DNA from: Bacteroidales bacterium
GTDB lineage: Bacteria; Bacteroidota; Bacteroidia; Bacteroidales; F082
NCBI GenBank assembly: GCA_017427985.1
Contig: JAFRRS010000013.1
Location: 4,565 to 68,564 of the forward strand
Reading direction: 5' to 3'
DNA: 64,000 nucleotides
The notes beneath the pieces were generated by a model that was not told where the DNA came from, searched no databases, and worked only from the letters and a program-made list of their open reading frames with translations. Numbering within the stretch: the first letter of the stretch is position 1; the number at the start of each line of letters is the position of its first letter. Shown piece after piece: positions 2,075 to 40,048 of this stretch. The translations under genes were made by a program, and so were the position numbers.

Positions 2075-2109
2075 AACTTCTAACTAAAAACTCCTAACTT
2101 CTAACTAAT
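2075..2109. repeat. heptanucleotide-periodic spacer AACTTCT AACTAAA AACTCCT AACTTCT AACTAAT
   Basis: Five consecutive 7-nt units were read directly. They fill the gap between the stop of the 610-aa gene (2105) and the serS leader. Confidence 0.8.
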
Positions 2110-4020: not shown

Positions 4021-4575
4021 TCAGAATCCGTAATCGGCTTGTTCCTCGGCAGCGATTAGGAAGTCGTCCTCGTTCGGAAGGACGTATGTTTTTGGTGTCT
4101 TGGAGCAGGTTTTGAGGAAATAATCATGCAGTTGTATCTCGACTTTCTGCATTGTAGATTCGATTTTTGAAGGAGTGAGCCGGCATTCCCAGATGACAAT
4201 CACCTGCCAGCCGTTGTCCTGCAAAACCTGATAATTTTGTCTGTCCCGCTCCTGGTTTCTGCGTATTTTATTAATCCAAAACTCGCGGTTAGTATTCGGA
4301 ATCTTACAGCAATCCGAGTTCACAACTTCCAACTTCTCATTCCTAACTTCTAACTCGACATCGTGTCCGTGCCAGAAGCATCCGTTGACGAAAATCGCCG
4401 TGCGGTAGCGTCTCATCACGATATCAGGTTTTCCTGGAACTCCTTTAACATTAAGGCGATAGCGGTATCCGTGTTGCCACAGCCATTTGCGAACAAGCAA
4501 TTCCGGCTTCGTGTCGCGAGAATGGATGTGCGACATGCATAGGTGGCGTTGGGTGGGGGTCATTTTGTCGGTCAT
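4021..4575 (-). CDS. vsr: very-short-patch repair endonuclease (Vsr) carrying an extra ~16-aa segment
   Basis: Vsr hallmarks are present: SRDTKPEL, GKPDIV, NGCFWHGH ... PNTNREFW..KI..N..RD ... VIVIWECRL. Its start shares 1 nt with the stop of the upstream nuclease gene. Confidence 0.85.
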   Translation of the reverse strand: MTDKMTPTQRHLCMSHIHSRDTKPELLVRKWLWQHGYRYRLNVKGVPGKPDIVMRRYRTAIFVNGCFWHGHDVELEVRNEKLEVVNSDCCKIPNTNREFWINKIRRNQERDRQNYQVLQDNGWQVIVIWECRLTPSKIESTMQKVEIQLHDYFLKTCSKTPKTYVLPNEDDFLIAAEEQADYGF

Positions 4576-6794
4576 TATACAATGTATTTCATCAACTCGT
4601 CTCCTGTTTCGAAGATAGGTGTTCCATCTATGTAATCAGGTAATAATTTGGCGTCCGTAATTATGTCATGAAGACTAATTCTTGTCGAAAGCTGTACCTC
4701 TTCATCAAAGACGTAACATAAATAATTGCCTTGAGGATTTGGATATAATGCTTTTTTCATTCTTTCTTCATCCAATGTAGCATGATGATGAACATGAAAA
4801 ACGCGATATCCTTTGTTTTCAGCATTATATTCATAAAGGATTACGAATTTAACATCCAAACTTGCCAGATAAGTGGGTGATAAAGCACCGTCACGAACAT
4901 CGCTTCCGCGTTTCTTCAAGCGGACATTGTAAAGGTTGGTTCCTTTGTCGTTTTTGCCCATAATCCAATCCAGTTGTTCCTTCGAATGGTAGCAGCCAAT
5001 GAGGAAATGCTGGGTTGGATAGCGTTGAATATGGTGAGTGGTGAGCAGTGACACAGGTTGTATTGCTCTTTCAGGTTGAACAACGGTTGGCAAAACAGTT
5101 CGAGGGTCTTGTCCTAACGAACATTGTTTGCAATAAAAGCCTGTATCAACCAGATTTAGAATATACTCGTTCTCATCATTGTATTTTTTGTCTTTGTCGA
5201 GTGCGAGTGCAAAATACTGTTGTGTATCTGGAATATCATAAGGAGTGTAAACCTTTCCCAACAATTGTTGGAAATTATCTTTTATGAATTCCTCCGCATT
5301 GATTTCTTCACGTGGTGTCATGGCATAGAAATCATACTGCTCTTGGAGAACTTTTTTGATGTTTTCTCGAAATATCTTTCTGATTTCTTGTGTGCGCTCA
5401 CCGGCTCCCAGTACGTAACATGCAAGCACGAAAAGGAAATTGATATTATACGTCTGAAGGATTAGTGTGTCACGGTCAAAGAGTCGATTCTCAAAATGGT
5501 ACGAAATCCTGTGGCTCTTACCATCAATCATCTTCTCCAGTTGTAAATTGGCATTGCTGTAGTTGTTCAGTTGCTCGGCTTGCAGATGTCCGCGAATAAA
5601 GAAATTGGGCGTGATGTTGTAGCCTTCGGTCGTGTTGTCCCGGTATTGCAGGTTTGTCCGCTCAAACGCTTCTGGATCCTGATTAAAGAAATCGATATTG
5701 TATTGGATTACGTTCTTGGCGTACGTGAATTGTTTGTAAATGGAGTCCGGACCAATATCATTGTCATCCTTATAGTATTTGCTGTCACCGATGAAATAGA
5801 TTTGCTTTTTGTCTTCAATCAATGAATTGTCACGATAGATATGGTCGATGATCTTGCCGTCTTTATGTTTCTTAAGTCTATGATCCAGATTGTTGTCGCC
5901 GATGAGCGAGTCGATCATGTCCTCGAACACAAGGTTGAACTCACGAACAAGCATCGCCTGTTCATCCTGATTGTCTTTGCTTTGGACGTATTGGGATTGC
6001 TCGAAAAACGTAAAGAGCAAGTTCCAAAGCTGCACCATCTCATCCGTGAAATACTTACGTCGGTTCTGCCTGAGGACACGTACACCTTTGCCACTTTCTA
6101 TCATGGATTGGATATTTTCGGGTTTGAGCAGCTCATACCCAAAAGCAGGACGGACATTGAACTTGAATTCTTGTGCCAAATAGTTCAATACCGAGTAAAA
6201 TAGCACTATCAGTTCTTCATCAAAATTGATGTCTTTTTGTTTGGTGTGCGGATTGAGATACACTGGAACTCCGTTTTGAATCAGTGCCTTGGTCTTTGAG
6301 ATGGTTTTCTGCCAGTGTATCTTGTTTTGTCCGGAGTGCTTGAGACGGGTAATATAAGTAAATAGGCTCTTGTGTTCCTTGTCGAATTTCAAGAGTGAAA
6401 GGACAATGTCTATCATCGTTTCATTACTCGGACCTTGGTGGGAAACCACGTTTTGCATGATCTCCGCTTCGTCACTTGCCTTGTCCTTGCGTTGAAAATA
6501 GAGTTTAATGGCTCGATATATCCACACGGAAAGACTGAAGACGTTGGCCTTGTGCTCCTGTTTGAGATTGTCAAAATCGATTATCTCTTCCAGTTCATAT
6601 TCGCCGAAGGCTTTCCCGTAAATGATAAACACTTTCGGCAGAATAAACACCGTATCAGGGATTTTGCGCGAAAGGAAATAACCGACATAGGGTATCTTGG
6701 CTTTCCCATCGCGCATCTCCGTGAAATAGTGCGGGTCGAGTATGATGCTCAACCTGTCTTTATCATAGCCGTATTGCTCTATCAGTATCTTCAT
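4575..6794 (-). CDS. McrC-like / LlaJI R2-type restriction endonuclease subunit
   Basis: 739 aa, with a 4-nt ATGA overlap to the upstream McrB-like gene. It has a PD-(D/E)xK-type segment IYFIGDSKYYKD (D-x-K-Y as in McrC). The large size and gene order match LlaJI-type R2 proteins, as far as I remember them. Confidence 0.65.
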   Translation of the reverse strand: MKILIEQYGYDKDRLSIILDPHYFTEMRDGKAKIPYVGYFLSRKIPDTVFILPKVFIIYGKAFGEYELEEIIDFDNLKQEHKANVFSLSVWIYRAIKLYFQRKDKASDEAEIMQNVVSHQGPSNETMIDIVLSLLKFDKEHKSLFTYITRLKHSGQNKIHWQKTISKTKALIQNGVPVYLNPHTKQKDINFDEELIVLFYSVLNYLAQEFKFNVRPAFGYELLKPENIQSMIESGKGVRVLRQNRRKYFTDEMVQLWNLLFTFFEQSQYVQSKDNQDEQAMLVREFNLVFEDMIDSLIGDNNLDHRLKKHKDGKIIDHIYRDNSLIEDKKQIYFIGDSKYYKDDNDIGPDSIYKQFTYAKNVIQYNIDFFNQDPEAFERTNLQYRDNTTEGYNITPNFFIRGHLQAEQLNNYSNANLQLEKMIDGKSHRISYHFENRLFDRDTLILQTYNINFLFVLACYVLGAGERTQEIRKIFRENIKKVLQEQYDFYAMTPREEINAEEFIKDNFQQLLGKVYTPYDIPDTQQYFALALDKDKKYNDENEYILNLVDTGFYCKQCSLGQDPRTVLPTVVQPERAIQPVSLLTTHHIQRYPTQHFLIGCYHSKEQLDWIMGKNDKGTNLYNVRLKKRGSDVRDGALSPTYLASLDVKFVILYEYNAENKGYRVFHVHHHATLDEERMKKALYPNPQGNYLCYVFDEEVQLSTRISLHDIITDAKLLPDYIDGTPIFETGDELMKYIV

Positions 6795-8470
6795 TTAGAG
6801 GAAACGCCCAAGTAATCCATGAATTGTTGTAAGGTCTGCGTTGCTGCTTCTTCATACAAGTCTTTGAATATGAATTTGCTTGTCTGCTCTTTGTCGTCAA
6901 TGGTTGTTTTCTTGTAGAAGAAGTATTTGTTGTTCTCCGTTTCGTCACGCAGCACTTCATACCAAAGATAGAACATCACCTTGCTCTTGAATTCCTTTTC
7001 ATCCACAGAGTGCTTGATAAAGAAGTTTCCCAATTGTTTGTCCTCGCTCTGGGTGAGGTCAAAAATCCTCTTGTTGGCTTCTTTTATAAAGTCAACCCAG
7101 GGATAAGCCTTGTCTCCGATGGTTATTTCAAATGTGCCTGACTTGATATCAGTAGCATAGTTAATAGGGACATACTCCCATTCCCAACGGCGTTTAAACG
7201 CGCTGTCCATGGGAAACAGGCTTTGATCGGAGGTATTCATGGTGGCGAGAATATTCAGGTTAGCGGGCAAGCAGAGTTTTCCGTCTTTAATGCCTTCTGA
7301 ATCCTCTCCCAATTTGTCTATGAGATAGTTTGCCAAGTCTTTGTCTGCTTTGATTTTGTATTCAGAAACTCCACCTTTTCTGTCCAACAGTTGGAATAAG
7401 TCGCCGAAGATTTGTGCGCAGTTCCCGCGGTTGATTTCTTCAATGACGAGATAGGTTTGCTCTGTTGAATGGGTGTAAGCATAAATGTAGGCGTCTGTAA
7501 AGGCTTGCGGAACGAATTCATACACAATCTCCTCATCTTTGCCGGTCAAGGTCTTTTCCTCTTTGGACGTCGGTTTCATGGTAGGCTTGTAGCATCCCAC
7601 AAAAGAAGCATAATCCGTATCCGGATGGAAAGTTGTACGGAAAACATTGGGCAAATCTCTTTCTTCACCACTGTCTAATAGTTCCCCTGTTTGTTTCTTT
7701 ACTTCGTGGCTTTTGCCTGTGCCTGGGGCACCGAAGAAGATTTGCTGGAGAGGAGAATCTATCTTTGTTGTTTTCATGATAGATGGATTGTTAATAGTGT
7801 TAAATAGAGAATGAATATCGACATTAATTAATTGGCATACATCTTCATCAAACTCAACATAAGATGTGTCCGCTTGGTTAACATCATTAGTATAAATCGC
7901 ATCACAATAATCTGAAGTAAATAATGTATTCAGCGCACTTTTTATACCGTCCATATTCTCTTCAGGAATCTGTTTAAATCGAAGAAGCCAAACAATAAAA
8001 GCCAATCTTAACTCAGAAGAACCCAAATAAAAAGAAAAGCAATCATTTAGGTAATCACCCCGATATATTAACACTTGGTCTTGAATGTCCATGACAGGCT
8101 TCCACCCTGAACGTTTGGGGTATAAAAAAGTATTGTATGGGTTTGTTTTTGAATCTTTTACAGATGATTGGGAATAGAAATTGCTGCCACAATCAAAGTC
8201 TCTCCCATTTTGAGAAATACTCAAGAAAAAGTCTTTTGTGCAGTAGTCTTCATTAATTTTCACTATCTCTCCGACATGTGATGCAAATTCATCTCTATTG
8301 GCGGATAGTTTCAAATCGCAATTCTGGCTGTGATTTTTATAAAATAAGTCCAGAGCCGATGCGTATTTTAAGGCACTGACTTTTTGTGTAAGTCCTTGCT
8401 GTTTTTCAGAATCTATGCCAGAAAGCAACTTATAAGCATGTAATACTGTTGATTTTGCCAAATATGCCAT
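6791..8470 (-). CDS. McrB-family AAA+ GTPase (LlaJI R1-type) with an unassigned ~235-aa N-terminal domain
   Basis: Walker A FFGAPGTGKSH is present, along with EEINRGNCAQIFGDLFQLLDR. The McrB signature MNTSDQSLFPMDSAFKRRWEWEYV is also there. Confidence 0.8.
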   Translation of the reverse strand: MAYLAKSTVLHAYKLLSGIDSEKQQGLTQKVSALKYASALDLFYKNHSQNCDLKLSANRDEFASHVGEIVKINEDYCTKDFFLSISQNGRDFDCGSNFYSQSSVKDSKTNPYNTFLYPKRSGWKPVMDIQDQVLIYRGDYLNDCFSFYLGSSELRLAFIVWLLRFKQIPEENMDGIKSALNTLFTSDYCDAIYTNDVNQADTSYVEFDEDVCQLINVDIHSLFNTINNPSIMKTTKIDSPLQQIFFGAPGTGKSHEVKKQTGELLDSGEERDLPNVFRTTFHPDTDYASFVGCYKPTMKPTSKEEKTLTGKDEEIVYEFVPQAFTDAYIYAYTHSTEQTYLVIEEINRGNCAQIFGDLFQLLDRKGGVSEYKIKADKDLANYLIDKLGEDSEGIKDGKLCLPANLNILATMNTSDQSLFPMDSAFKRRWEWEYVPINYATDIKSGTFEITIGDKAYPWVDFIKEANKRIFDLTQSEDKQLGNFFIKHSVDEKEFKSKVMFYLWYEVLRDETENNKYFFYKKTTIDDKEQTSKFIFKDLYEEAATQTLQQFMDYLGVSSK

Positions 8471-8472
8471 AA

Positions 8473-9687
8473 CTATTTCTTTTTAACTTGTATATGATTC
8501 AATAAAGCCATTGCAACGACCCATGCCATAACGGGAGGAACGGCATTCCCTATTACTTTATATTGTGATTGTAGAGGTATTGCATTAAATCTAAAATTAT
8601 CTGGGAAAGATTGAATTCTTGCACATTCTCGTACCGAGTAACGCCTGTTTTCTACAGGATGTGTAATGCCACAATTTTCTGGCTGTGCAGAAGCTGTGAT
8701 GGTACCATTTATTTCACCAAAAGCAAAACGTCTGAAAAATTTCGGTGCATGATATTTCTTGGGATCATCCGCTATTTTCTTAAAACGAGGTGATAGTTTT
8801 TCGTATGGAATATCCTTCCACGAACGTCCTTCAAAAACAACAGAAGGTAATTCATTTTTGGAATACCCTTCATGAAACAATTCCATAGCCTTTTGTCCAT
8901 GTTTGCAGCCGCCAATTAATTCAACAGTATTTTGAGTAGTAACACTATATTCCCAGACGACATCGTCATTTTGTTCATGAACCCCCTGTAATATCCGACC
9001 CAAAAGAAGTTCTTCGTCTTTCCCTGTTAATGTTGACGGAACATTGTTCTTTTGAACCACTTTTAATAATAAATTGAAATCGAATGGCTTCAAATTCAAT
9101 TGCTTATCAATGCCAATTATGAGAACTCTGTATCTTTGTTGTGGAACGCCATAATCACTTGAGCAGACGAGTTTTATGCTTACATCGTAGCCCAACGCTT
9201 CCATTCTGTTTTGGATTTCCTGTGGGACTGTCCTTTCCCCGTCTGGCATTTTCGAAGAGAGAATACCTCTGACATTTTCAAACAAAAATGCCTTAGGGCG
9301 TTTATTTTCATCCGCCTTGGCTCGTATAATTCGTTCACATTCTTCAAACAAGGTTCCTCTCCCATTGGCATCATTAACGCCTTTTCTGCTTCCTGCATTA
9401 GAAAATGGTTGGCAAGGGAATCCTGCAAGCAAAATATCAAAATCTGGAATTTGTTTTGCATCCACATTTCGAATGTCTTCCAACAGACACTTTGCGCCAT
9501 CGTTCACTAATAAAGGATTTGCATTATAACACTTACACGCATCAATATCAAAGTCGTTTGCAAACACAATTTTTGTATTCAATCGTTTATAATCTTTCCC
9601 TAAAAAGGAAAAACCTCCTGCAAAGCCTAAATCAAGACCCCCGCAACCGGAAAAAAGGGATGCAATTTTATATTTTTTCTTGGACAT
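8473..9687 (-). CDS. DNA (cytosine-5)-methyltransferase (MTase 2)
   Basis: Motifs read: I LFSGCGGLDLGF, IV GFPCQPFS, VI FENVRGI, VIII QQRYRVLIIG, IX SVRECARIQSFPD, X IGNAVPP. Confidence 0.9.
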   Translation of the reverse strand: MSKKKYKIASLFSGCGGLDLGFAGGFSFLGKDYKRLNTKIVFANDFDIDACKCYNANPLLVNDGAKCLLEDIRNVDAKQIPDFDILLAGFPCQPFSNAGSRKGVNDANGRGTLFEECERIIRAKADENKRPKAFLFENVRGILSSKMPDGERTVPQEIQNRMEALGYDVSIKLVCSSDYGVPQQRYRVLIIGIDKQLNLKPFDFNLLLKVVQKNNVPSTLTGKDEELLLGRILQGVHEQNDDVVWEYSVTTQNTVELIGGCKHGQKAMELFHEGYSKNELPSVVFEGRSWKDIPYEKLSPRFKKIADDPKKYHAPKFFRRFAFGEINGTITASAQPENCGITHPVENRRYSVRECARIQSFPDNFRFNAIPLQSQYKVIGNAVPPVMAWVVAMALLNHIQVKKK

Positions 9688-9733: not shown

Positions 9734-10642
9734 CTATTTCAGTAATTTGGAGAAAACGTCTGAATACTTAAGAATATTCTTTCTGATCTCCTTGATATCT
9801 TCATCATTAAAAGTTTTATCTCCTTTTTTCGTTATAAGAACTTCCTTCCCTTCCACTACTTTACTTACACAATGTGCCAATTGATTCCTGATTTCAACAA
9901 TTTCTGCCATATAGTCTTCAAAGAAGTTCGCGCGAGTAGGAGAATATAATTCTTTTGGGATTATATAGTTAACAGCTTTCGCCATTTGGGCTGATTCCAT
10001 ATTAGGTATTACTTCTTGTATCGGTATGCTTTTCCATTTGTGATAGCAAACCTTCTCCTTTTTACCACATCCATCCAAAGCATTCTTTATTCTTTCTTCT
10101 TGTTTTCTTGTTATATGATCGTGAAAAGTTTTTATTAGAATGTCTGTCTCATTCTGGACATAATATTTGTTTATCAAATCTAACATTATACCATCTAATT
10201 CGCTCACTTCAGCCATCACGAGCCCACGTAAATTATTCAAATCTTGAACTTTTCGAATGGTTGTCTGAATAACTACTTTTATCTTGTTTAAAAACAAGTC
10301 TTTATCTCGCCCCGAAAAATAGACACCTTCCAAATCCAAAGCTTGAGCTTTTTGTTTGATCTTTTGAAGCCCATCGGCAGAATAGAACACAACATCCGTA
10401 TAAATTTCTTTGTCTCGGATATTTTTTATCAGTAAATCTCCCGAAGGTTCGGTTTCAAGGTTTAAATCCATTAAAATGAGATCGTAGTTATTATATTGGA
10501 TTGTATCATCTTGTTTGGAATACAAATCCCAATTTAATACCAAACCATAGTCTCCTTCAACAATCTCTTTAAGATCGTCTTCTATGGATTCAGCCCAATC
10601 CGAATCATTTTCAACCCAAAGTATCTGATATTTTAATCTCAT
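9734..10642 (-). CDS. receiver (REC)-like protein with a C-terminal helical HEPN-like domain (R252-N-Q-L-A-H257)
   Basis: The N-terminus reads ILWVENDSD ... DLILMD59LNL ... VVFYS88A, which fits a CheY-like fold. The C-terminal ~160 aa is all-helical and carries RNQLAH (nt 9872-9889). A 2-nt gap separates it from the upstream kinase-like gene. Confidence 0.55.
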   Translation of the reverse strand: MRLKYQILWVENDSDWAESIEDDLKEIVEGDYGLVLNWDLYSKQDDTIQYNNYDLILMDLNLETEPSGDLLIKNIRDKEIYTDVVFYSADGLQKIKQKAQALDLEGVYFSGRDKDLFLNKIKVVIQTTIRKVQDLNNLRGLVMAEVSELDGIMLDLINKYYVQNETDILIKTFHDHITRKQEERIKNALDGCGKKEKVCYHKWKSIPIQEVIPNMESAQMAKAVNYIIPKELYSPTRANFFEDYMAEIVEIRNQLAHCVSKVVEGKEVLITKKGDKTFNDEDIKEIRKNILKYSDVFSKLLK

Positions 10643-10644
10643 AT

Positions 10645-13218
10645 TCAGAATATTATATCTAATTTTAACCCTTTTCCTTTGTTATTGTTTTGAGAACGAT
10701 AGGCCGTATCAATAGAAATAGAGCCTTTCAATTCTTTTTCAACAAACATTTTAGCATTAAACAACCCCAACCCAGATCCTGACGTTGTAGTTACTCCTTT
10801 CTCGAAAATATCCTGTTGATTTTCTAAACTATTTGCAATGCCATGTCCATCATCAAAAATGCTCATTTCAATTTGACTGCCCTTTTGAGAAAACACAACA
10901 TTGAAATGACGAGCTCCGGCTTTGATGGAATTAGAAAGAAGATTGTCAATTAATAGGTTTAACTCTAAAGGACGAAACTTCATAATGCGTTTGCAATTGT
11001 TTGTTTTACAAATGAGATTAATTTCTTCGTAATAATCCGGAAGCACGGATGTCAAATACTGATTTACAAACTCCACAATATCTGCGTCCAAAGATTCTCC
11101 TTCCACGTTAAAATTGGCTTTTGTGGCAAATCTTGAAATGGACAGCACCTTTCTATTTGCCTTGGAAATACGCTCCAACGCTTTAGTGAGATTACCTTTA
11201 TCTATTGTACCCTTATACAACTGTTTGATGATACTGTCCAAAGAATTCTGGATCGTATGCGCATTCAATCTGATATCGTGATGATACTTGATAATTCTAT
11301 CTTTATCGAGATTATCTACCGATTGCAGGAAAAGATTTTGTTTTGTTTTTTGATCAAGTTTTTTCTCTGCTTTTTTTCTCTTTTCTTCTTCCTCTTTTCT
11401 TTTCTGTTCAGCTTCTTTACGAAGCAATTCTTCTTCCCGTCTTTTAAGCTCTGCTTCTTTTGCTTGCAATTCTGCTTTTCGTTTTGCCTCGGCTTCTTCC
11501 TCTTTTTTCCTCTCTGCCTCTATTCTTTTAATTGTTTCTTCTTGGGCTTTGCGTTCAGATTCCTCTCTCTTTTTCTCCGCTTCGATGGCTCTTTGTTCAG
11601 CTTCCTCTTTTTCTTTTCTGAGTTTTCTTATATGTTGTTTTGCTTCGTCGATGCTCAGAAGCATATTTTCATCATTTGTGCTTTCAGCGATTTTCTCAAG
11701 ATCGTTGAGAAATTGAGGTTTTATGTTGTCAATCTCTTCTGGATCAGACAGAATATTTGCAAGATCTTTGTTGTAAGAGACGATTTCAACATTTTTATCA
11801 CGAGTAAGGGTTTTTATGAGTTGAATAAAATCTATCTTACTTCCAATGCTTGAATTAATCAAATAATTGGGATTGTCGTTCTCCTTATCATTTTCGAGTA
11901 GTTCTTTTCTTCTTTCCAGAGCTTCATTGGCATCTTTAAAATATTCTTTTTTCAAAAAAGCTTCGCCCCAAAGCACACCAGAAACATATCTCTCCAATCT
12001 TCTATGAGCAACTTCGAAAAGATTAAAAAGTTGTTGTGAAGTTTGGGTTTCAATCAATCCTCCATCGCGACTTGACACCTCCTTCAGTTCCTCAACATTA
12101 TCTGTCAAGACATCAACCCTGCCAAACAAATCACGTGTTCCAAGAAAACGATTATGTCCTTGTTGTGCACGGTAATCGAGCCCCCAGCTGTCATCTCCGG
12201 TATTGCCAAATGGCATTATCCTAAATCCATTTCTGAATAAAAAAACCGAACCATAATTAACAGGTTCAATGCCCATTAATCTGGTAAAATTATTTTTTGC
12301 AGAACGGTTTAGGAAATAGAGATTGATACTAACATCCTTCAGTTTGTCAAAAGAATTGTTTTTCTCATGAATAGTGTACATCTCGACCCCGCGATCGGTA
12401 AGTGTTGTGGTAATGTGATCGGGAGACAATTTCACATCTATCTGGGTCGTTTTTAGATCAAGAATGCTTGTTATACTATTTTTTAAAATCCCATTGACCA
12501 ACTCTCTTTCGTGTTTGCCTTTCTCAATACAACTCTTATCCTCAGCGAGCTCTCTATTGCACTTTATTTCGATGCCGAAATCACTCGTTTCCGCAAAAGG
12601 ATTGATTAATTTTTCAAGAGAATGCTTGAGATCCAATAAACGTTTCCTGTTCCAAGGCATTTTTTCATCATTCAGCCTTTTAATCTCAAGAATAGTTCCG
12701 TGTGTCTCTTTTTCAGGAAAAATCGCATTAGAAGTAGTTAAGGTATCGTGTCCTACATTAACATTAGCAAATTCTAAATTCTGGTCAATTTCGAAATCGG
12801 TCCAATCAACTTGAATAATTTCAAGCGTGTTTGAAGAAACACTTTTTGTCTTTAGTAATAATTCTTTGCCCAATCGATCACATGAAAAACGCCCAATACC
12901 TTTGGCTCCCGCATAATGACGCCTGATTTTATCTCTATATGATGTTTGTTTGTCATCTGAATCGTTATCTTCAGTACCATCCTTCTTAGCTGAGTACCCT
13001 AAAAAAAGCCATTTCTTTTTTATATCTTTTAAAGACATTCCCTTGCCATTATCTGCAATAATAATTTTGTCGTCAAGGAATTCTATTTCCACTTTTTTTG
13101 CGTAAGCATCATAGGCATTTTTCACCAACTCAAATATGGCCACATTATCATTGATAATTAAATCTTTACCAACAAGATCTTTTAAAGCCGAACTAATTTT
13201 AAACTGCAGCTGTTCCAT
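10645..13218 (-). CDS. dual-GHKL protein: N-terminal MORC/MutL/Hsp90-class ATPase, E/K/R-rich helix, C-terminal histidine-kinase core
   Basis: N-terminal motifs: ELVKNAYDA, ADNGKGM, GAKGIGRFS. Residues 531-622 are almost pure E/K/R/A/Q. The H-box-like segment is YHHDIRLNAHTI (aa 645-656). The kinase core has N-box DNLLSNSIKA, G1 DDGHGI and G2 GSGLGL. No TM segment or signal peptide is present. Confidence 0.65.
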   Translation of the reverse strand: MEQLQFKISSALKDLVGKDLIINDNVAIFELVKNAYDAYAKKVEIEFLDDKIIIADNGKGMSLKDIKKKWLFLGYSAKKDGTEDNDSDDKQTSYRDKIRRHYAGAKGIGRFSCDRLGKELLLKTKSVSSNTLEIIQVDWTDFEIDQNLEFANVNVGHDTLTTSNAIFPEKETHGTILEIKRLNDEKMPWNRKRLLDLKHSLEKLINPFAETSDFGIEIKCNRELAEDKSCIEKGKHERELVNGILKNSITSILDLKTTQIDVKLSPDHITTTLTDRGVEMYTIHEKNNSFDKLKDVSINLYFLNRSAKNNFTRLMGIEPVNYGSVFLFRNGFRIMPFGNTGDDSWGLDYRAQQGHNRFLGTRDLFGRVDVLTDNVEELKEVSSRDGGLIETQTSQQLFNLFEVAHRRLERYVSGVLWGEAFLKKEYFKDANEALERRKELLENDKENDNPNYLINSSIGSKIDFIQLIKTLTRDKNVEIVSYNKDLANILSDPEEIDNIKPQFLNDLEKIAESTNDENMLLSIDEAKQHIRKLRKEKEEAEQRAIEAEKKREESERKAQEETIKRIEAERKKEEEAEAKRKAELQAKEAELKRREEELLRKEAEQKRKEEEEKRKKAEKKLDQKTKQNLFLQSVDNLDKDRIIKYHHDIRLNAHTIQNSLDSIIKQLYKGTIDKGNLTKALERISKANRKVLSISRFATKANFNVEGESLDADIVEFVNQYLTSVLPDYYEEINLICKTNNCKRIMKFRPLELNLLIDNLLSNSIKAGARHFNVVFSQKGSQIEMSIFDDGHGIANSLENQQDIFEKGVTTTSGSGLGLFNAKMFVEKELKGSISIDTAYRSQNNNKGKGLKLDIIF

Positions 13219-14494
13219 GTTGTAGCATATTTAATAAAACTTCCCCCGCCAATTCCGCAAATAAAGGCGGAATGGCATTCCCAATTTGGGTGTAACGGGG
13301 TACTTCCAACTTGCGCATCTTGCCGCCAGTGGTATATTTCTTTTTAATCTCATACCAATCGGGAAACGATTGGATACGGGCACATTCACGAACGGTCATG
13401 ATGCGAGGTTCTGAATAGTGCAAATAGTCATCTGGACTGCCGGTAATGGTCGGAGAGACCACATTGGAATCCAAAATGGTGATGCCACGCTGCTTGATGC
13501 CCCATTGCTCACGTGTCTCTCCGTCAATTCGTTTGCCACGTTGCGGATATTCAGATAGCAAGCGTTTGTAGCAATTGATTTTATCTGGTGTTTGTTTGGC
13601 AAAACTGTGGCTATCTGCTATTCCATGCGTTTCTGGATAGTCGCCTCGCATCAACTTTTGGTATGCCGTCGGTTTCTTCTTGCCATATTTTCCGGAATAA
13701 AAGCCTTTGCGATCTGGTGTGGGTTCTTCTCCGTTGGATCGAAGCAAGTCAGAAATTGCGTCCTGCAAAGTGTTGGTGGACTTTAAGCCTTTTTGCGCCA
13801 GAAACGCATCTCGATTGGCTTTTAACAAACCTTCGAAACAATCAGGCGTTCCTAACTCTTTTCGAATTCCAACAAGAATAAAACGCTTGCGACGTTGAGG
13901 GACACCATACTCTGAAAAATCAATCACATGTGGTTTCACATTGTAACCCAAATCTCCCAACCCACGAATCACTTTGAGGGAATAGGGTTCATTCTCGGAA
14001 GAAGCCGATTTCCCTTTGTCGAAAGCATAAGTGAAGCCTTTCACATTCTCAAAAAGGATCATTTTAGGTCTAACTAAGTCGATGAATTTTATATATGAAA
14101 ACACCAACTGGTTTCTTACATCTTCTTCAACACGTTTGCCAGCCATAGAAAAACCTTGGCAAGGCGGTCCGCCAGCCACTAAGTCCACGTTCCCACGCAA
14201 AGATTTCAGTTGCTCCGAATACTTTTCCAATACCTCGTTGATGTCGTGTTCGGTTTTAGGCAGCCATTCCGGCCAATCAAAGTGGTTCTTGTTATCAATA
14301 AGGTTGTATTTTAATGTTTCAAAAGCAAATGCGTTTTTCTCAATAGCGAACAAGCCATGCCATCCCGATTGATAAAGCCCCAAAGACAAACCTCCACAAC
14401 CCGCAAATAGATCTATTACCGTACGAAACGCCAACTGTTTTCCCTTTTCAACAGAAGACAACTTATTATTACTCTTATAGTTAGCGTTTTTCAT
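13199..14494 (-). CDS. DNA (cytosine-5)-methyltransferase (MTase 1)
   Basis: Motifs read: I DLFAGCGGLSLG, IV GGPPCQGFS, VI FENVKGF, VIII QRRKRFILVG, IX TVRECARIQSFPD, X IGNAIPP. The stop overlaps the start of the kinase-like gene by 20 nt. Confidence 0.9.
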   Translation of the reverse strand: MKNANYKSNNKLSSVEKGKQLAFRTVIDLFAGCGGLSLGLYQSGWHGLFAIEKNAFAFETLKYNLIDNKNHFDWPEWLPKTEHDINEVLEKYSEQLKSLRGNVDLVAGGPPCQGFSMAGKRVEEDVRNQLVFSYIKFIDLVRPKMILFENVKGFTYAFDKGKSASSENEPYSLKVIRGLGDLGYNVKPHVIDFSEYGVPQRRKRFILVGIRKELGTPDCFEGLLKANRDAFLAQKGLKSTNTLQDAISDLLRSNGEEPTPDRKGFYSGKYGKKKPTAYQKLMRGDYPETHGIADSHSFAKQTPDKINCYKRLLSEYPQRGKRIDGETREQWGIKQRGITILDSNVVSPTITGSPDDYLHYSEPRIMTVRECARIQSFPDWYEIKKKYTTGGKMRKLEVPRYTQIGNAIPPLFAELAGEVLLNMLQHGTAAV

Positions 14495-15366: not shown

Positions 15367-18300
15367 TTATCTCACCACAATTTTTTGTGTTTGTTCGTTT
15401 AATTTCAAAATGTATACGCCAGTTTGTAAAGACGTTTCAGGAAACGTCTCCACCCCATTTACGCGCCTGCTTGCAATCATGCGCCCCATCACATCGAAGA
15501 TTTGCAGCTCGCCTTCGCCTGTGATAATTATTTCAGCACCATTTTGATAGGCAAAATGCCCCTGCAGAGACGCAAAATTTTGCGTCTCTGCAAACACGAT
15601 TATAAACCTTTCTTGTCTATCGGTTGGCGAACCGATGAAGGTGTAGCGGTTGTTTTCGGTTAAATCAACAACAACATCTTCTAATCTATCGATTAATTTT
15701 ATGTCCGGTAGAGACGTTTCCTGAAACGTCTCACCCAAACGCGAAAAATAAGACGTTTCAGGAAACGTCTCTACGGAAATGGTATATTGTCCCATTTCTT
15801 TCGCCTTGAAATTCAGCGGAATCTCGCCCTGGCGGCTGCTAGAAACCATAGCGTAATCCTTGCCGTCTTGCGGGACGTATAATTTTGTGCTGCCGTCGAA
15901 GACCTGCAATTTCTCCATTGTTTTCTTGCTGTCGAAACGCACTATTGCGCGGTCGATGACGCTGCCACGGTTTCCTTTGCTGAGGTTGATGACTACCTGT
16001 CCTGATTCAGATTTTTGACCGCTGCCTTTGCCTGGCGCTTCGGTGGTGAATGTCAGCGTCTCACCGTCTTCGTCCGCGTGAACGAAGATGCCTTCCATAG
16101 CTTCAACATGGTAATCAGCGCGTTCAGCGAGTACAATTTCGCTGCCGTCGTCGTTCATAACATAGAAATCGCGGTCGATGTAAGCCGTTTCAGCAAACGG
16201 GTTGCCCACGAGGTTCCAGCCTTCCATTTCAGCACCCGGTGTCTTGGTGAGGGTGACCGTACCATCACCGCTGTAATGCTCGCCGTTGAAGGTGAGCGTC
16301 ACATCTTCGCTGTTGGCATAGAGATAGCCTCTTCCCTGCTCAAGGTCGAAATGATAGTGGTCGGATTCATCTGCCTTCCAGTTTTCCCATTCCGCATCGG
16401 CGGCTTGGTTGAAGCGGTATAGGTCGTAGGTGTTTTTGGTGAGGCCATTCACATCTGTTGGGAAGACGTCATTAGCCAAAGGCGAAGCGATGAGGTTCCA
16501 GCCGTCATTGCCATCGGGAGTGTAATGTGCTATGTCGAGAGTGACTGTTTGTTGGGATTCAACTTTCTTGTAAAGCGAAAACGATCCGCCAGTATTTGTT
16601 GTAGAGCAATCGAAACCTATGATCTGTCCGTAAGTATTGTGATATCTAAGATAAGGATAGCTTCCACCGCACCTGAAATCGTAAACGGATGTCCCCTCCA
16701 CCGTCCAGAGACCAAAGCCATCGTTATGGTCATTTGCATTTTCAACTAAATCAACCTTGTAGCAAAAATAATATGCTGCGTATTTTTGGGCTTCAGCGCT
16801 GTAGATAGTCCAACGGTCGTCATTTGGGGCGATGTGCCAAACAATGTCTGTTTGGTCTGTAGTAATCACGTCATCAATCGCAGTAACATTCGTATATTGG
16901 AATACACGGTTCATTAACATGCTGCTCATGGCAGCGCCATCTTTTACAATCAGATAGTCGCCTTCAACAAGGTCTCCGCTGAATAGTTCATAATGGTCAC
17001 CAGTTGGAGTGCCAGGCTCCACAGTGGCACTGACAGTCACGTTGGCATCGGGCATCACGAAGGAAAAAACGCCGTTGTCAGGCTCGATGTTGTAGTCGTT
17101 GCCGCCGTAAGAGAGGGTGGCTGAGGTGAGCTTATAGCCTTCTTGTGCGCCCAGCGTGACGGTATATCCGACACTGCTATAGATGTAGGTGGTATTGCCG
17201 TCGTTATATTTAATGGCATGGTTGCCAAAGCCGATGGCGGTAATGCCGCTCACGTTGTAGATGGTTTCCTCGCCTTTGAGGATGACGCCCTCGCCGAGAG
17301 TGATGGTGCGGGCGCGGCGAGCGCCGTCAATGTCGTTGCCCCTTACACCGCCAGGCACTATGGCACTGGTGGTGTTGTAGTAGTTGTTGGTGTAAAAGCA
17401 CTGATACATGTTACCGCCAATTATTGCGCCACTACTCTCATCGGAGATGACGGCAGTGCCGGTGTAAAGGCAGTTACAGACGATGGTATAGCAATCGTTG
17501 TTATAGAGTTCCGTGTTGTTGCCTACGATGCCGCCATACAAACGGCTAGCCGTTGACTCCACTCTGTTTTCGATGACGGTAGCGCCACTGACACATCCGA
17601 CCACTGAGCCCAGGTTATAGCCCGCGATGCCGGCGTGGCGAGGTGAAACGTCACCACCGGCATAGATGTTGACGCTATTCTCCACGCGGCAGTTATAAAT
17701 GATCCCTGTGTTGAGACCCACGATGCCGCCAACACTAGCTCTCCCAGCGAAGGTACAGTCGGTGAGGGCAACGTTCCTAACGGTAGCCGTAGTGTTATCG
17801 GTATCATAACCAATACGGCCGAAAAGACCGACATTTTCGTCGTTCCAGTTAACCCAGATGCCGCTTATGGTGTGGCCGCCGCCGTCATAAACGCCATTGA
17901 AAGTGTTTGCTAATTGGCGTCCGATTGGGACGTAGTTGTTTTCTGTGCCGTCATAAACCAGGTCGACTGTCTGGAGGAAGAACTTGTCGCTGTAATCGTT
18001 GCCTTCATTGACCTTGGTTGCCAGCCTATCCAAATCAAGGGTTGTTCTTATCAGGAAGGGGCTTTCAGCGGTACCATCACCGCTCCATGGGGCAATTTCG
18101 ATGATGGCTGTAACGGTGACATCCTTGTCGGGCATGTCGAAGGTGTAAACGCCGGCAGTTTCGGTTACAGCGACATCGTTGTTGTTTGAATCTTTCACGC
18201 TGAAACCGGCAAATGCGTAGTCATCGGGTGCAGTGCCGGTGTAATCGAGGGTTAGCGTCTGTGTGGCGCCGCTGAAGATAGGGTTGTTGCTACGACGCAT

Positions 18301-19752: not shown

Positions 19753-20010
19753 CTAACTTCCTTTTTTTTTCATCGCGTAACCTGCGCCTAATACTCCAAG
19801 GATTAGGAGACCGCTGCCGAGAGGAGCTTCGGCACCGTTATCGTTGTTTAAACCATGGGCTGTCGGCAACCCGAACTCCACATTATCGTATGTGTTAGTG
19901 CGATACAAATCGTTATCGACATCAGACCATTTGAAAAACATGTCGCTCTGGGCTTTTCCGCAGAATCCCATAAACATTAAAACTGCAATTGTTAAAAAGA
20001 ACTTTTTCAT
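19753..20010 (-). CDS. small secreted protein with a C-terminal hydrophobic helix and a KKK tail
   Basis: 85 aa. The signal peptide is MKKFFLTIAVLMFMGFCGKAQ and the C-terminus is APLGSGLLILGVLGAGYAMKKKGS. Its stop codon abuts the ATG of the 1461-aa gene (TAGATG). Confidence 0.6.
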   Translation of the reverse strand: MKKFFLTIAVLMFMGFCGKAQSDMFFKWSDVDNDLYRTNTYDNVEFGLPTAHGLNNDNGAEAPLGSGLLILGVLGAGYAMKKKGS

Positions 20011-20046
20011 TTATTTAATTTTTAATTGTTATTCTCTTTTTTATTA

Positions 20047-20131
20047 GTTTCCTCACCCTTTCAGGGTTCGGAATGACAACAGTCTTTGCTAACCAAACAC
20101 CCTTGTCATTCCGACCGAAGGGAGGAATCTC
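20047..20131. repeat. inverted pair of REP-like units (..CGGAATGACAA / TTGTCATTCCG..)
   Basis: Unit 20047-20078 and unit 20104-20131 are mutual reverse complements with a few mismatches. A 25-nt spacer separates them. The pair sits just downstream of the 2333-aa gene stop. Confidence 0.8.
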
Positions 20132-20133
20132 TC

Positions 20134-39983: not shown

Positions 39984-40048
39984 TGTATTATTGTTGATTT
40001 TGCAAAAATACAAAATAATTACAATTTCGTCAAGTTTTTTCTGTTTTT

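What the first reader, a model, noticed from the sequence alone, without database searches (positions are those of the whole stretch)
9734..10642. Receiver domain fused to a putative HEPN RNase output instead of a DNA-binding output
The REC-like N-terminus has acidic residues in ILWVENDSD, D59, S88 and a basic residue near the beta5 position. It is followed by ~160 helical residues with no HTH-like motif. That region carries RNQLAH (nt 9872-9889) ~45 residues from the C-terminus, the usual position of the HEPN catalytic helix. By itself Rx4H has a non-trivial chance occurrence, which I estimate at roughly 10-20 percent in a domain of this size. The added Asn after the Arg and the defence context raise the prior. 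A second, canonical HEPN toxin (HepT) at 39347-39694 shows the motif in its ordinary TA context for comparison.
Basis: inference. Interest (0 to 1): 0.65.

Follow-up and report, generated by a model that had tools for sequence, protein, structure and literature searches.

The report
Receiver domain fused to likely RNase
This gene encodes a two-component response regulator whose output is very probably a HEPN-type RNase, and it is the last gene of a widely spread three-gene cassette (cytosine methylase, MORC-like histidine kinase, regulator) that looks like a restriction-modification-style phage defence signalling by phosphotransfer.

Summary
The ORF at 9734-10642 (-) encodes 302 aa, and RNQLAH lies at nt 9872-9889, 45 residues from the C-terminus.

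The N-terminal ~130 residues model as a CheY-like receiver. D59 is invariant in 115 diverse relatives.

The C-terminal ~170 residues are probably HEPN, but this is not proven.
- For: R252, N253 and H257 are near-invariant. The motif sits at the end of the third core helix, after a variable insert. Relatives repeatedly give co-linear, sub-threshold hits to five Pfam HEPN families and to Cas13, Csx1 and CARF-HEPN models.
- Against: Foldseek, PDB profile searches and hhalign against the window's HepT family gave nothing significant.

In all 25 genome loci where the upstream flank is present, the order is C5 DNA methylase, then a kinase with an N-terminal MutL/MORC-type ATPase, then this regulator. 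The loci span nine bacterial lineages and Methanosarcina. DNA nuclease modules downstream vary or are absent.

A sister cassette was published in 2021 without an assigned output. Detocs shows receiver-effector defence, and paraMORC-HEPN fusions are known.

I read this as a phosphorylation-activated RNase effector of a defence cassette, a new variant of a known kind. Nothing here has been tested experimentally.

The parts
13199..14494 (-). C5 cytosine DNA methyltransferase, first gene of the conserved three-gene cassette. It overlaps the kinase gene by 20 nt.
   Evidence: PF00145 at E 1.3e-56 and TIGR00675. It lies immediately upstream of the kinase in all 25 genome loci where that flank is present. 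It is the most conserved cassette member, 52-86% identical across phyla including Archaea.
10645..13218 (-). 857-aa soluble sensor kinase. It has an N-terminal MutL/Hsp90/MORC-type GHKL ATPase module, an E/K-rich coiled coil, and a DHp plus histidine-kinase ATPase.
   Evidence: HATPase_c_3 at residues 25-146 (E 6e-21) and HATPase_c at residues 751-841 (E 1.4e-18). The N-terminal profile matches MutL, PMS1, HtpG/Hsp90 and MORC3. The C-terminal part matches ZraS and PrrB kinases. The N-terminus also resembles the BbrUII/HgiDII restriction enzyme family.
11983..13218 (-). paraMORC-like sensor module (kinase residues 1-412): the GHKL ATPase plus a conserved ~260-residue domain of unknown fold.
   Evidence: tblastn shows this block alone is shared with GHKL / 'ATP-binding' / 'sensor histidine kinase' proteins on 100 plasmids. 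The ATP-binding motifs ELVKNxxDA, DNGxGM and GxKGxGRF are conserved in 27 homologues.
11314..11706 (-). Glu/Lys-rich predicted coiled-coil linker (kinase residues ~505-635), variable in length among homologues.
   Evidence: Read directly from the sequence. This is an alignment gap region in the 27 kinase homologues of 753-903 aa that were aligned.
10648..11304 (-). Transmitter core (kinase residues 639-857). The H-box is YHHDIRLNAH, with H647-D648 as the predicted phospho-histidine site (H647 at nt 11278-11280). The catalytic ATPase follows.
   Evidence: H647 is at least 96% conserved, and D/E follows it, in 27 homologues. The N, G1 and G2 boxes are conserved. phmmer matches the ZraS kinase at residues 639-834.
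10247..10642 (-). Receiver (REC) domain of the finding's protein, residues 1-132. Acidic E11/N12, phospho-acceptor D59 (nt 10466-10468), S88, and R112 in place of the usual Lys.
   Evidence: The AF2 model has a (beta-alpha)5 pattern with pLDDT 87. Foldseek's top 50 hits are all receiver-domain structures, a few of them full-length response regulators or engineered fusions. A profile of 89 close relatives matches CtrA at E 6e-5, aligning D59 with the phospho-Asp. D59 is kept in 115/115 and S/T88 in 114/115.
9737..10246 (-). C-terminal ~170-residue helical output domain (residues 133-302), assigned as HEPN-like. Helix 1 is 135-163, helix 2 is 167-188, the variable insert is 189-239, helix 3 is 240-256, a beta-hairpin is 258-271, and helix 4 is 280-301.
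   Evidence: AF2 models of the full protein and of the isolated domain agree (pLDDT 87 and 88). In the 1.84-billion-protein library the domain lies at ~130-300 of ~300-aa proteins in nearly all full-length hits, the shorter entries being fragments. Relatives give recurrent sub-threshold HEPN family hits.
9872..9889 (-). RNQLAH, the predicted catalytic Rx4H motif with a polar Asn after the Arg.
   Evidence: R is kept in 114/115, N in 112/115 and H in 115/115 representatives. All three are invariant in the 42-sequence C-terminal alignment, which includes 23-27% identical members. The position at the end of helix 3 matches the published HEPN description.
10199..10240 (-). Most conserved stretch of the whole protein, LNNLRGLVMAEVSE (residues 135-148), at the start of the output domain. 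R139 and G140 are invariant, and E145 and D150 are nearly so.
   Evidence: R139 is kept in 115/115, G140 in 114, E145 in 107 and D/E150 in 113. Its role (a second active-site arginine, a dimer interface, or REC coupling) is an inference.
4021..9687 (-). Accessory downstream module, frequent but not obligatory. It comprises a second C5 methylase (8473-9687), a McrB-like GTPase (6791-8470, NxxD motif MNTSDQS), a LlaJI-R2/McrC-like nuclease (4575-6794) and a Vsr endonuclease (4021-4575).
   Evidence: Pfam PF00145, AAA_5, RE_LlaJI and Vsr. McrB/LlaJI-R2 homologues lie next to the cassette in 8 of 27 genome loci. Other loci carry HNH_2, ResIII+RE_endonuc or a helicase-MTES_1575 nuclease, or nothing related.

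Best explanation
The ORF encodes the response regulator of a dedicated cytoplasmic two-component pair, and its output domain is a HEPN-type, metal-independent RNase. It is the last gene of a mobile three-gene cassette: a C5 DNA methylase, a kinase whose sensor is a MutL/MORC-type (paraMORC) GHKL ATPase module, and this REC-HEPN protein.

Proposed mechanism:
1. The methylase marks host DNA.
2. The paraMORC module of the kinase monitors DNA state. It responds to unmodified or foreign DNA, or to failure of the neighbouring restriction system.
3. This drives autophosphorylation at H647.
4. The phosphoryl group passes to D59.
5. Phosphorylation-induced receiver dimerisation brings two HEPN domains together, so the two RNxxAH motifs form the composite active site.
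6. The resulting cleavage of cellular or phage RNA (possibly tRNA) arrests the infected cell. This would be an abortive-infection or back-up arm analogous to PrrC/RloC.

Shown here: the domain anatomy, the conservation, the gene linkage and the intact catalytic motifs.

Inferred: the HEPN fold and RNase activity, the signal that is sensed, activation by dimerisation, and the defence phenotype.
For: REC.
- CheY-like fold.
- Profile match to CtrA with D59 on the phospho-Asp.
- D59, Y87 and S/T88 invariant or nearly so in 115 representatives.

Kinase competence.
- The H647-D/E H-box and both ATP-binding sites are conserved.
- The transmitter matches ZraS and PrrB.
- The N-terminal GHKL matches MutL/Hsp90/MORC3.

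Coupling.
- The kinase stop and regulator start are 2 nt apart in the window, and overlap by 4 nt in many loci.
- The cassette order is conserved in 25/25 genome loci where the upstream flank is present. These cover Bacteroidales, Verrucomicrobia, Clostridia (Alkaliphilus), Treponemataceae, Fibrobacter, Holosporaceae, Pirellulales, Omnitrophota and Methanosarcina.
- The cassette stands alone in Alistipes finegoldii and several other loci.

HEPN.
- The RNxxAH motif is near-invariant: H257 in all 115 representatives, R252 in 114, N253 in 112.
- It lies at the end of core helix 3, after a variable insert that is almost deleted in the most distant members. That is where HEPN inserts occur.
- 25 hits from 115 members fall on five HEPN-clan Pfam families: Swt1 11, RiboL-PSP 6 (best E 1e-5), MAE_28990 4, Abi_2 2, HepT 2. 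No competing non-REC family recurs to a similar extent.
- The RiboL-PSP hits cover helix 1 through the motif, for example 142-266 against profile 35-163.
- There are 13 hits to CARF_HEPN, Cas13 and Csx1 models in PADLOC.

Precedents.
- HEPN domains fused directly to paraMORC ATPases in R-M neighbourhoods (PMC3710099).
- Detocs shows that a kinase plus a REC-effector can be a bona fide abortive-infection system requiring the His and Asp (bioRxiv 10.1101/2023.01.24.525353).
- Sister cassettes on plasmids carry regulators with different C-terminal domains, as expected for swappable effectors.

Evolutionary rates. The effector evolves fastest (23-65% identity) and the methylase slowest (52-86%).
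Against: - No fold-level or significant profile-level proof of HEPN. Foldseek on the isolated domain gave a best E of 1.6. PDB profile searches were empty. hhalign against the HepT family aligned only the motif, at probability 0.25%.
- All Pfam HEPN hits are below the gathering thresholds. The window protein itself reaches only Abi_2 at E 0.056.
- The usual HEPN acidic Ex3[KR] in helix 2 is not conserved. The conserved acidic residues lie in helix 1.
- The receiver is atypical. Arg replaces the conserved Lys (R in 88/115), the window protein has Asn at the second acidic position, and the Pfam REC score is 24.5, below the cut-off of 30.2.
- No PADLOC model hits the window protein.
- There are no experimental data for any member.
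- DNA nuclease genes often follow the cassette, so it may be a regulator of those systems rather than an effector.
Confidence: 0.6

Rival explanations
1. The cassette is a regulator of the adjacent restriction-modification genes rather than an immune effector. The REC-HEPN protein would be a sequence-selective RNase or RNA-binding protein. It would tune the mRNA of the downstream nuclease genes (McrB/LlaJI-R2, HNH_2 and others) or of the methylase, for example to delay restriction when the element enters a new host.
For: The regulator gene lies between a methylase and co-oriented nuclease genes in the window and in many loci. The 2021 description of the sister cassette proposed a regulatory role for R-M systems (PMC8011034). 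Bell et al. noted two-component genes inside McrBC operons (PMC11090510).
Against: The downstream nuclease type is not constant, and it is absent in about ten of 27 loci, including Methanosarcina, Omnitrophota and Alistipes. Only the methylase-kinase-regulator trio is invariant. An invariant catalytic-type motif with a fast-evolving remainder fits an effector better than a specific regulator.
Confidence: 0.17
2. The C-terminal domain is a new helical output domain that is not a nuclease, for example a protein-protein or nucleic-acid binding module acting on the methylase or on DNA. The conserved R, N and H would serve binding or structural roles.
For: There is no significant structural or profile match to any solved HEPN. 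All HEPN family hits are sub-threshold. The strongest conservation is in helix 1 (RGLVMAExSELD), which is not a classical HEPN motif.
Against: The chance of RNx3H is about 1% per sequence, and it is near-invariant over 115 diverse members. Its position and the helix/insert topology match HEPN. Weak hits fall repeatedly on HEPN families only, in two independent libraries. paraMORC-HEPN fusions exist.
Confidence: 0.15
3. The receiver is a pseudo-receiver that is not phosphorylated. The kinase-like protein acts only as an ATP-driven clamp, and the two proteins interact constitutively, with REC serving as a dimerisation or docking module.
For: Lys is replaced by Arg at the beta5 position in most members. 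The window clade has Asp replaced by Asn at the second acidic position. The Pfam REC score is sub-threshold.
Against: D59 is invariant, S/T88 and the acidic residue 11 are conserved, the H-box histidine is conserved, and the catalytic ATPase motifs in the kinase are complete. Such conservation is not expected if phosphotransfer were lost.
Confidence: 0.06

Closest known systems
TCS-like HEF_HK / Response_reg_2 cassette associated with C5 methylases and paraMORC ATPases (Bellieny-Rabelo et al. 2021, PMC8011034)
   Same: The gene order and architecture are the same: an upstream C5 DNA methylase, a soluble kinase-like protein with N-terminal HATPase_c_3, a DHp-like H-box and C-terminal HATPase_c, then an adjacent receiver-like protein. 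Vsr and HNH_2 genes are frequent neighbours. The distribution includes Bacteroides, Prevotella and Akkermansia.
   Different: That paper assigns no output domain and never mentions HEPN or an RNase. Neither PF19191 nor PF19192 was reported for the window proteins or their relatives, so this is a separate sequence family or sub-family. Related plasmid cassettes have regulators with unrelated C-termini.
Detocs, the defensive two-component system (Rousset et al. 2023, bioRxiv 10.1101/2023.01.24.525353; PADLOC PDC-M60)
   Same: A histidine kinase plus a regulator whose receiver is fused to a cell-killing effector instead of a DNA-binding domain. Effector domains are swappable and the logic is abortive infection. 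A few relatives of the window protein weakly hit the Detocs receiver models PDC-M60B and PDC-M60C (best E 5e-5 and 9e-6).
   Different: The Detocs kinase senses through TPR repeats and has no paraMORC module. Detocs has a third 'buffer' receiver protein, no obligatory methylase, and usually a PNP ATP nucleosidase as effector. The window proteins hit no Detocs model.
paraMORC-HEPN (Ymh family) fusion proteins in R-M neighbourhoods, and the PrrC/RloC anticodon nucleases (Anantharaman et al. 2013, PMC3710099)
   Same: These show a functional link between a MutL/MORC-type GHKL ATPase and a HEPN RNase inside R-M gene neighbourhoods. They were proposed as an RNA-targeting back-up to DNA restriction.
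   Different: There the ATPase and HEPN are one polypeptide. Here they are separate proteins connected by a His-Asp phosphorelay. The HEPN-like domain gives no Ymh hit among the reported families.
Effector-domain-activated HEPN RNases: Csm6/Csx1 (CARF-HEPN) and Ire1/RNase L (kinase-KEN)
   Same: A sensor or dimerisation domain N-terminal to a HEPN domain whose RNxxxH-type motif forms a composite site in a dimer. Relatives weakly hit CARF_HEPN and Csx1 models. The RN...H form of the motif is described in PMC3710099. That the motif acts as a composite site in a dimer rests on my own knowledge of these enzymes.
   Different: Activation here would be by aspartyl phosphorylation of a receiver domain, not by cyclic oligoadenylate or 2-5A binding or by kinase-domain back-to-back dimerisation. 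No significant homology to these proteins was found.
LlaJI-type / McrBC-like restriction system with two C5 methylases and Vsr
   Same: The window carries a McrB-like GTPase (NxxD), a RE_LlaJI-like McrC homologue, C5 methylases and Vsr directly downstream. Bell et al. 2024 noted two-component genes in methylase-associated McrBC operons.
   Different: This module is an optional neighbour, present in 8 of 27 loci, and is not part of the invariant trio. Bell et al. report the two-component association for the NxD branch, whereas the window's McrB has NxxD.

Membership tests
CheY-like receiver (REC) superfamily | (beta-alpha)5 flavodoxin-like fold | tested here: met
   The AF2 model has five alternating strands and helices over residues 4-132, at pLDDT 87. 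Foldseek hits to receiver structures have E about 1e-4 and TM (target) 0.7-0.83.
CheY-like receiver (REC) superfamily | Phospho-acceptor Asp at the end of beta3 | tested here: met
   D59 aligns with the CtrA phospho-Asp and is kept in 115/115 representatives.
CheY-like receiver (REC) superfamily | Acidic pair after beta1, Thr/Ser after beta4, Lys after beta5 | tested here: inconclusive
   Position 11 is always E or D. Position 12 is D in 89 and N in 25 members, including the window protein. Position 88 is S or T in 114/115. The Lys position is R in 88 and K in only 7 of 115.
CheY-like receiver (REC) superfamily | Pfam PF00072 score at or above the gathering threshold | tested here: not met
   The window protein scores 24.5 bits against a cut-off of 30.2. 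However, 100/115 relatives match PF00072 at E<=1 and some exceed the cut-off, for example 35.7 bits.
HEPN superfamily | Conserved Rx4-6H motif with a polar residue (N/D/H) after the Arg | tested here: met
   RNQLAH is present. R is kept in 114/115, N in 112/115 and H in 115/115. The motif is invariant in members 22-29% identical to the window protein.
HEPN superfamily | Motif at the end of core helix 3 of a four-helix up-down bundle, with a variable insert between helices 2 and 3 | tested here: inconclusive
   The secondary-structure order fits: H135-163, H167-188, insert 189-239, H240-256 carrying the motif, a hairpin, then H280-301. The insert is nearly deleted in distant members. The criterion is from PMC3710099.
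HEPN superfamily | Significant profile similarity to an established HEPN family | tested here: inconclusive
   25 sub-threshold hits from 115 members fall on five HEPN Pfam families (best E 1e-5, all below gathering scores). A sub-family consensus matches RiboL-PSP-HEPN at E 1.1e-4. hhalign against the HepT family is not significant, at probability 0.25%, although R aligns with R and H with H.
HEPN superfamily | Structural similarity to solved HEPN domains | tested here: not met
   Foldseek of the isolated domain model (pLDDT 88, pTM 0.81) against the PDB gave a best E of 1.6 and no HEPN entry in the 50 matches listed.
HEPN superfamily | Conserved acidic residue in helix 2 (Ex3[KR]) | tested here: not met
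   No conserved acidic or basic pair occurs in residues 165-191. The conserved E145 and D150 lie in helix 1. PMC3710099 describes this feature as present in many families, not all.
HEPN superfamily | Metal-independent RNase activity dependent on the R and H | not testable with these tools
   This requires biochemistry.
HEF_HK / Response_reg_2 TCS-like cassette (PMC8011034) | C5 methylase, then a HATPase_c_3...H-box...HATPase_c protein, then a receiver-like protein, as adjacent genes | tested here: met
   This order is seen in the window and in 25/25 genome loci where the upstream flank is present.
HEF_HK / Response_reg_2 TCS-like cassette (PMC8011034) | Match to Pfam PF19191 (HEF_HK) and PF19192 (Response_reg_2) | tested here: inconclusive
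   Neither accession appeared for the window proteins, 115 relatives, or plasmid homologues, even at E<=10. I could not verify that both models are still in the Pfam copy used.
Detocs | DtcA kinase, DtcB stand-alone receiver and DtcC receiver-effector, matching the PADLOC PDC-M60 models | tested here: not met
   No PDC-M60 hit for the window kinase or regulator. There is no stand-alone receiver gene in the cassette. Only 6 and 2 of 115 relatives weakly hit M60B and M60C.
paraMORC GHKL ATPases | N-terminal MutL/Hsp90/MORC-type Bergerat ATP-binding domain in an R-M gene neighbourhood | tested here: met
   HATPase_c_3 at E 6e-21. The profile matches MutL, PMS1, HtpG and MORC3. The ATP-binding motifs are invariant. 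Methylase and nuclease genes are neighbours.

The most novel reading that the evidence does not exclude
The methylase-kinase-regulator trio is a self-contained, restriction-modification-like immune system in which the 'restriction' arm is not a DNA nuclease. A MORC-type ATPase reads the methylation or foreignness of DNA and converts that reading into a His-Asp phosphorelay. The relay switches on a HEPN RNase by receiver dimerisation. This would be the first case of epigenetic self/non-self discrimination wired to two-component signalling with an RNA-targeting abortive response. It occurs in at least nine bacterial lineages and in Methanosarcina.
Probability: 0.3. Interest if true: 0.8.

Novelty: new variant of a known kind. 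Interest (0 to 1): 0.6.

Why it matters
Response regulators are thought of mainly as transcription factors. Detocs showed they can be immune effectors.

A receiver fused to a HEPN RNase would add an RNA-targeting effector to that class. It would also give a simple, testable activation mechanism: phospho-dependent dimerisation that assembles a composite HEPN site.

It would assign a function to a cassette already reported in more than 600 genomes without any proposed output. It would also link bacterial MORC-type ATPases, whose function is poorly understood, to a readable signalling output.

Strict linkage to a highly conserved C5 methylase makes one idea directly testable by methylase deletion: that DNA methylation state is sensed and transduced by phosphorelay.

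Tried and rejected
- Foldseek of the full-length model against PDB and BFVD was dominated by receiver-domain hits and told nothing about the C-terminus.
- Foldseek of the isolated C-terminal model against the PDB gave no significant match, so the fold test is inconclusive.
- HMM searches of the C-terminal domain against PDB sequences, with a close alignment and a diverse one, gave only noise.
- hhalign against a HepT alignment built from the window's own HepT aligned only a 14-column motif stretch and was not significant. That profile is shallow, with homologues 62-100% identical.
- The global family consensus scanned against Pfam reached only HEPN_Swt1 at E 0.13. One sub-family consensus gave RiboL-PSP-HEPN at E 1.1e-4.
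- I looked for the classical Ex3[KR] in helix 2 and did not find it conserved.
- The search for related loci with the diverse alignment failed because no stretch was conserved enough. It worked with the closer alignment.
- An HMM of the C-terminal domain searched against all six-frame ORFs of the window and 42 loci found only orthologues. It found no second architecture and not the HepT.
- I considered membership in Detocs and rejected it.
- I considered that the upstream methylase is simply M1 of a LlaJI-type M1/M2 pair. I rejected this because the methylase travels with the kinase and regulator even where no McrB/LlaJI genes exist.
- Model coordinates were not exposed, so residue proximity (R139 to R252/H257) could not be measured.
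Full report
**1. Observation**

The ORF at 9734..10642 (minus strand) is real and encodes 302 residues.
- ILWVENDSD at residues 7-15
- D59
- S88
- a basic residue (R112) after the fifth strand
- RNQLAH at residues 252-257, nt 9872-9889, 45 residues from the end

Composition-preserving shuffles of the 173-residue C-terminal part give 15.2% for Rx4H and 1.0% for RNx3H. On one sequence, the motif is therefore weak evidence.

**2. Family-level conservation**

The protein has 427 relatives at E<=1e-3 in the 5.8-billion-protein collection. I searched the C-terminal domain alone against 1.84 billion cluster representatives and found 195 clusters. In nearly all full-length hits the domain occupies about 130-300 of a ~300-residue protein, and the shorter entries are fragments. 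The fusion to the N-terminal domain is thus the only architecture seen.

Conservation in 115 full-length representatives (25-49% identical to the window protein):

| Residue | Kept in |
|---|---|
| D59 | 115/115 |
| Y87 | 115/115 |
| S/T88 | 114/115 |
| R139 | 115/115 |
| G140 | 114/115 |
| E145 | 107/115 |
| R252 | 114/115 |
| N253 | 112/115 |
| H257 | 115/115 |

The motif also survives in the most distant homologues (22-29% identity; Pirellulales, Omnitrophota, Methanosarcina). In the first two of these, about 50 residues between the second and third long helices are deleted.

**3. The N-terminal domain is a receiver**

The AlphaFold2 model (mean pLDDT 86.9) shows a (beta-alpha)5 pattern over residues 4-132. 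Foldseek's top 50 PDB matches are all response-regulator receiver structures, with target-normalised TM up to 0.83. A profile of close relatives matches CtrA at E 6e-5, with D59 on the phospho-acceptor Asp.

The domain departs from the canon in three ways:
- The Pfam score of the window protein (24.5 bits) is below the gathering score of 30.2.
- The Lys after beta5 is Arg in 88 of 115 members.
- The window clade has Asn at the second acidic position.

I take it as a divergent but probably phosphorylatable receiver.

**4. The C-terminal domain: evidence for HEPN**

- *Anatomy.* Both the full-length and isolated-domain models (pLDDT 87 and 88, pTM 0.81 for the domain) give the same order: helix 135-163, helix 167-188, a poorly conserved segment 189-239, helix 240-256 with RNQLAH at its C-terminal end, a beta-hairpin, then helix 280-301. 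Anantharaman et al. describe HEPN as a four-helix bundle with variable inserts between helices 2 and 3. The Rx4-6H motif lies at the end of helix 3, usually followed by N, D or H. In the Csx1 family a hairpin follows the motif (PMC3710099).
- *Pfam hits.* I scanned the 115 representatives one by one. The receiver family matched 100 members. The only other families hit by more than a few members were a second receiver model (cREC_REC) and the HEPN-clan families: HEPN_Swt1 (11 members), HEPN_RiboL-PSP (6, best E 1e-5), HEPN_MAE_28990 (4), Abi_2 (2) and HepT-like (2). The Pfam clan grouping is from my own knowledge. Individual hits are co-linear with the whole domain, for example P0215 residues 142-266 on RiboL-PSP profile positions 35-163 at E 7.5e-4.
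- *PADLOC hits.* The same scan gives 13 hits to CARF_HEPN, Cas13 and Csx1 models.
- *Statistics.* All these hits are below curated thresholds. Their concentration on one clan is far beyond what scattered false positives would give (inference).

**5. The C-terminal domain: evidence against or missing**

- Foldseek on the isolated domain found nothing (best E 1.6).
- Profile searches of PDB sequences found nothing.
- hhalign against a HepT-family alignment aligned only 14 columns. R fell on R and H on H, but the probability was 0.25%.
- The classical helix-2 acidic residue is not conserved. The strongest conservation is instead in helix 1, RGLVMAExSELD.

I put the probability of a HEPN-fold RNase at roughly 0.75.

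**6.

On the same strand and tightly packed lie a C5 methylase (13199-14494), an 857-residue kinase (10645-13218) and the regulator. The methylase overlaps the kinase gene by 20 nt. The kinase stop is 2 nt from the regulator start.

The kinase has four parts:
- An N-terminal HATPase_c_3 domain. Its profile matches MutL, PMS1, HtpG/Hsp90 and MORC3, and it resembles the N-terminus of BbrUII/HgiDII restriction enzymes.
- A conserved ~260-residue domain.
- An E/K-rich coiled coil.
- A transmitter with a conserved H647-D H-box and a complete histidine-kinase ATPase.

A scan of one genome per species returned 27 loci: Bacteroidales, Muribaculaceae, Verrucomicrobia, Clostridium, Alkaliphilus, Treponemataceae, Fibrobacter, Holosporaceae, Pirellulales, Omnitrophota and Methanosarcina. 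In every locus where the upstream flank is present (25 of 25), the order is methylase, kinase, regulator, often with a 4-nt overlap between kinase and regulator.

Identity to the window across these loci is 52-86% for the methylase, 33-78% for the kinase and 23-65% for the regulator.

What follows the trio varies:
- McrB-like plus LlaJI-R2-like genes in 8 loci, as in the window, which also has a second methylase and Vsr
- HNH_2 endonucleases in 3 loci
- a ResIII helicase with an endonuclease domain
- a helicase-MTES_1575 nuclease
- nothing related, in Alistipes finegoldii, Methanosarcina and Omnitrophota

The trio is therefore the unit.

**7. Prior knowledge**

- Bellieny-Rabelo et al. (2021, PMC8011034) described essentially this architecture in 628 strains. 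A HATPase_c_3-HEF_HK-HATPase_c protein is linked to a 'Response_reg_2' protein, with upstream C5 methylases and nearby Vsr and HNH_2 genes. They related it to paraMORC ATPases. They proposed a regulatory link to R-M systems, assigned no output domain, and never mention HEPN. Neither of their Pfam models was reported for the present proteins, so this is a sister family.
- Related cassettes on plasmids (Campylobacter pTet, Acaryochloris pREB1, Stenotrophomonas) have regulators with different C-termini. That is what one expects of interchangeable effector domains.
- Anantharaman et al. (2013) reported HEPN domains fused directly to paraMORC ATPases in R-M neighbourhoods and compared them with PrrC/RloC. 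This is an independent link between the two domains that are joined here by a phosphorelay.
- Rousset et al. showed with Detocs that a kinase plus a receiver-effector is a bona fide abortive-infection system needing the His and the Asp, with swappable effectors. PADLOC's PDC-M60 is Detocs. A few relatives weakly hit its receiver models, but the window proteins do not.
- Bell et al. (2024) noted two-component genes in methylase-associated McrBC operons without analysing them.
- Full-text searches for HEPN together with receiver, response regulator or paraMORC found no description of a REC-HEPN regulator.

**8. Mechanism proposed**

Shown: a receiver with an invariant Asp; a cognate-looking kinase with an intact H-box and two intact ATP sites; strict three-gene linkage; a C-terminal domain with an invariant RNxxAH at the HEPN position.

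Inferred:
- The paraMORC module senses DNA state, in relation to the mark laid down by the co-inherited and unusually conserved methylase. Alternatively it senses failure of neighbouring restriction.
- The kinase autophosphorylates at H647 and transfers the phosphoryl group to D59.
- Receiver dimerisation juxtaposes two HEPN domains and forms the composite active site, as ligand- or kinase-driven dimerisation does in Csm6/Csx1 and Ire1/RNase L (my own knowledge).
- RNA cleavage arrests the cell.

Rivals:
- an RNase that regulates neighbouring R-M transcripts
- a non-catalytic helical output
- a pseudo-receiver

**9. Verdict**

The real entity is larger than the finding: the effector of a conserved methylase / paraMORC-kinase / regulator cassette.

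It is a new variant of known kinds (TCS-like R-M-associated cassettes, defensive two-component systems, paraMORC-HEPN linkages) rather than a categorically new thing. No member has been tested experimentally.

Noticed in passing
window 39347-40013 (minus strand): A canonical HepT-MNT toxin-antitoxin pair. HepT (115 aa, PF01934, E 1.8e-19, motif RHVLVH) lies at 39347-39694. It overlaps an upstream 111-aa ORF at 39678-40013 that carries the nucleotidyltransferase motif GSFSRGEETSESDVD.
   Followed up: partly
window 4021-9687 (minus strand): A LlaJI-like, McrBC-type restriction module directly downstream of the finding. It comprises a second C5 methylase, a McrB-like GTPase with NxxD signature MNTSDQS, a 739-aa RE_LlaJI-like McrC homologue, and Vsr. 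In locus L011 the McrB and McrC homologues follow the regulator with no second methylase. The cassette's own methylase may therefore also protect against this nuclease.
   Followed up: partly
window 2105-3937 (minus strand): A 610-aa ORF immediately downstream of Vsr with no Pfam match at E<=0.01. It is also called as a gene in the identical metagenome contig (L007 16706-18538). It could be a further defence-island gene.
   Followed up: no
L039 5995-10425 (Campylobacter coli plasmid pTet_BCH-10879) and 42 other Campylobacter plasmids: Conjugative pTet plasmids carry a sister cassette: a HATPase_c_3...HATPase_c 'sensor histidine kinase', a 331-aa 'response regulator' with a receiver domain and a C-terminal domain unrelated to the one studied here and without an Rx4H motif, and a convergent dcm gene. 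The nature of that output domain is unknown.
   Followed up: partly
window 11314-11706 (kinase residues ~505-635): A ~130-residue, almost pure Glu/Lys/Arg/Ala stretch (EEAEQRAIEAEKKREESERKAQEE...) links the paraMORC module to the transmitter. Its length varies widely among the 27 aligned homologues (753-903 aa in total). It may act as a rigid single alpha-helix or coiled-coil ruler.
   Followed up: no
L018 5664-6437, L019 10997-11770, L027 10905-11681: In three Bacteroidales loci a ~258-aa HNH_2 endonuclease gene follows the regulator directly. This is the same association that Bellieny-Rabelo et al. reported for their Response_reg_2 family.
   Followed up: partly
window 13199-14494 and homologues in L011-L037: The cassette's C5 methylase is unusually conserved for an R-M methylase: 52-56% identical between Bacteroidales, Methanosarcina, Pirellulales and Omnitrophota, and 76-86% within Bacteroidales. 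This suggests a fixed target specificity co-inherited with the kinase. The target sequence was not determined.
   Followed up: no
window 15367-27135 (minus strand): Two very large ORFs (1461 and 2333 aa) with Flg_new, GLUG and DUF285 repeats and a Por_Secre_tail (type IX secretion sorting) domain. These place the window in Bacteroidota, consistent with the closest homologues coming from Bacteroidales/Prevotella genomes assembled from metagenomes, several of them from rumen samples.
   Followed up: no
A2 members (relatives of the window protein): Eleven of 115 relatives weakly hit Pfam cREC_REC (PF20274, 'cyclic-phosphate processing receiver domain', best E 0.0033). HEPN RNases leave 2',3'-cyclic phosphate ends, so the coincidence may deserve a look. 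It may also be only generic receiver similarity.
   Followed up: no
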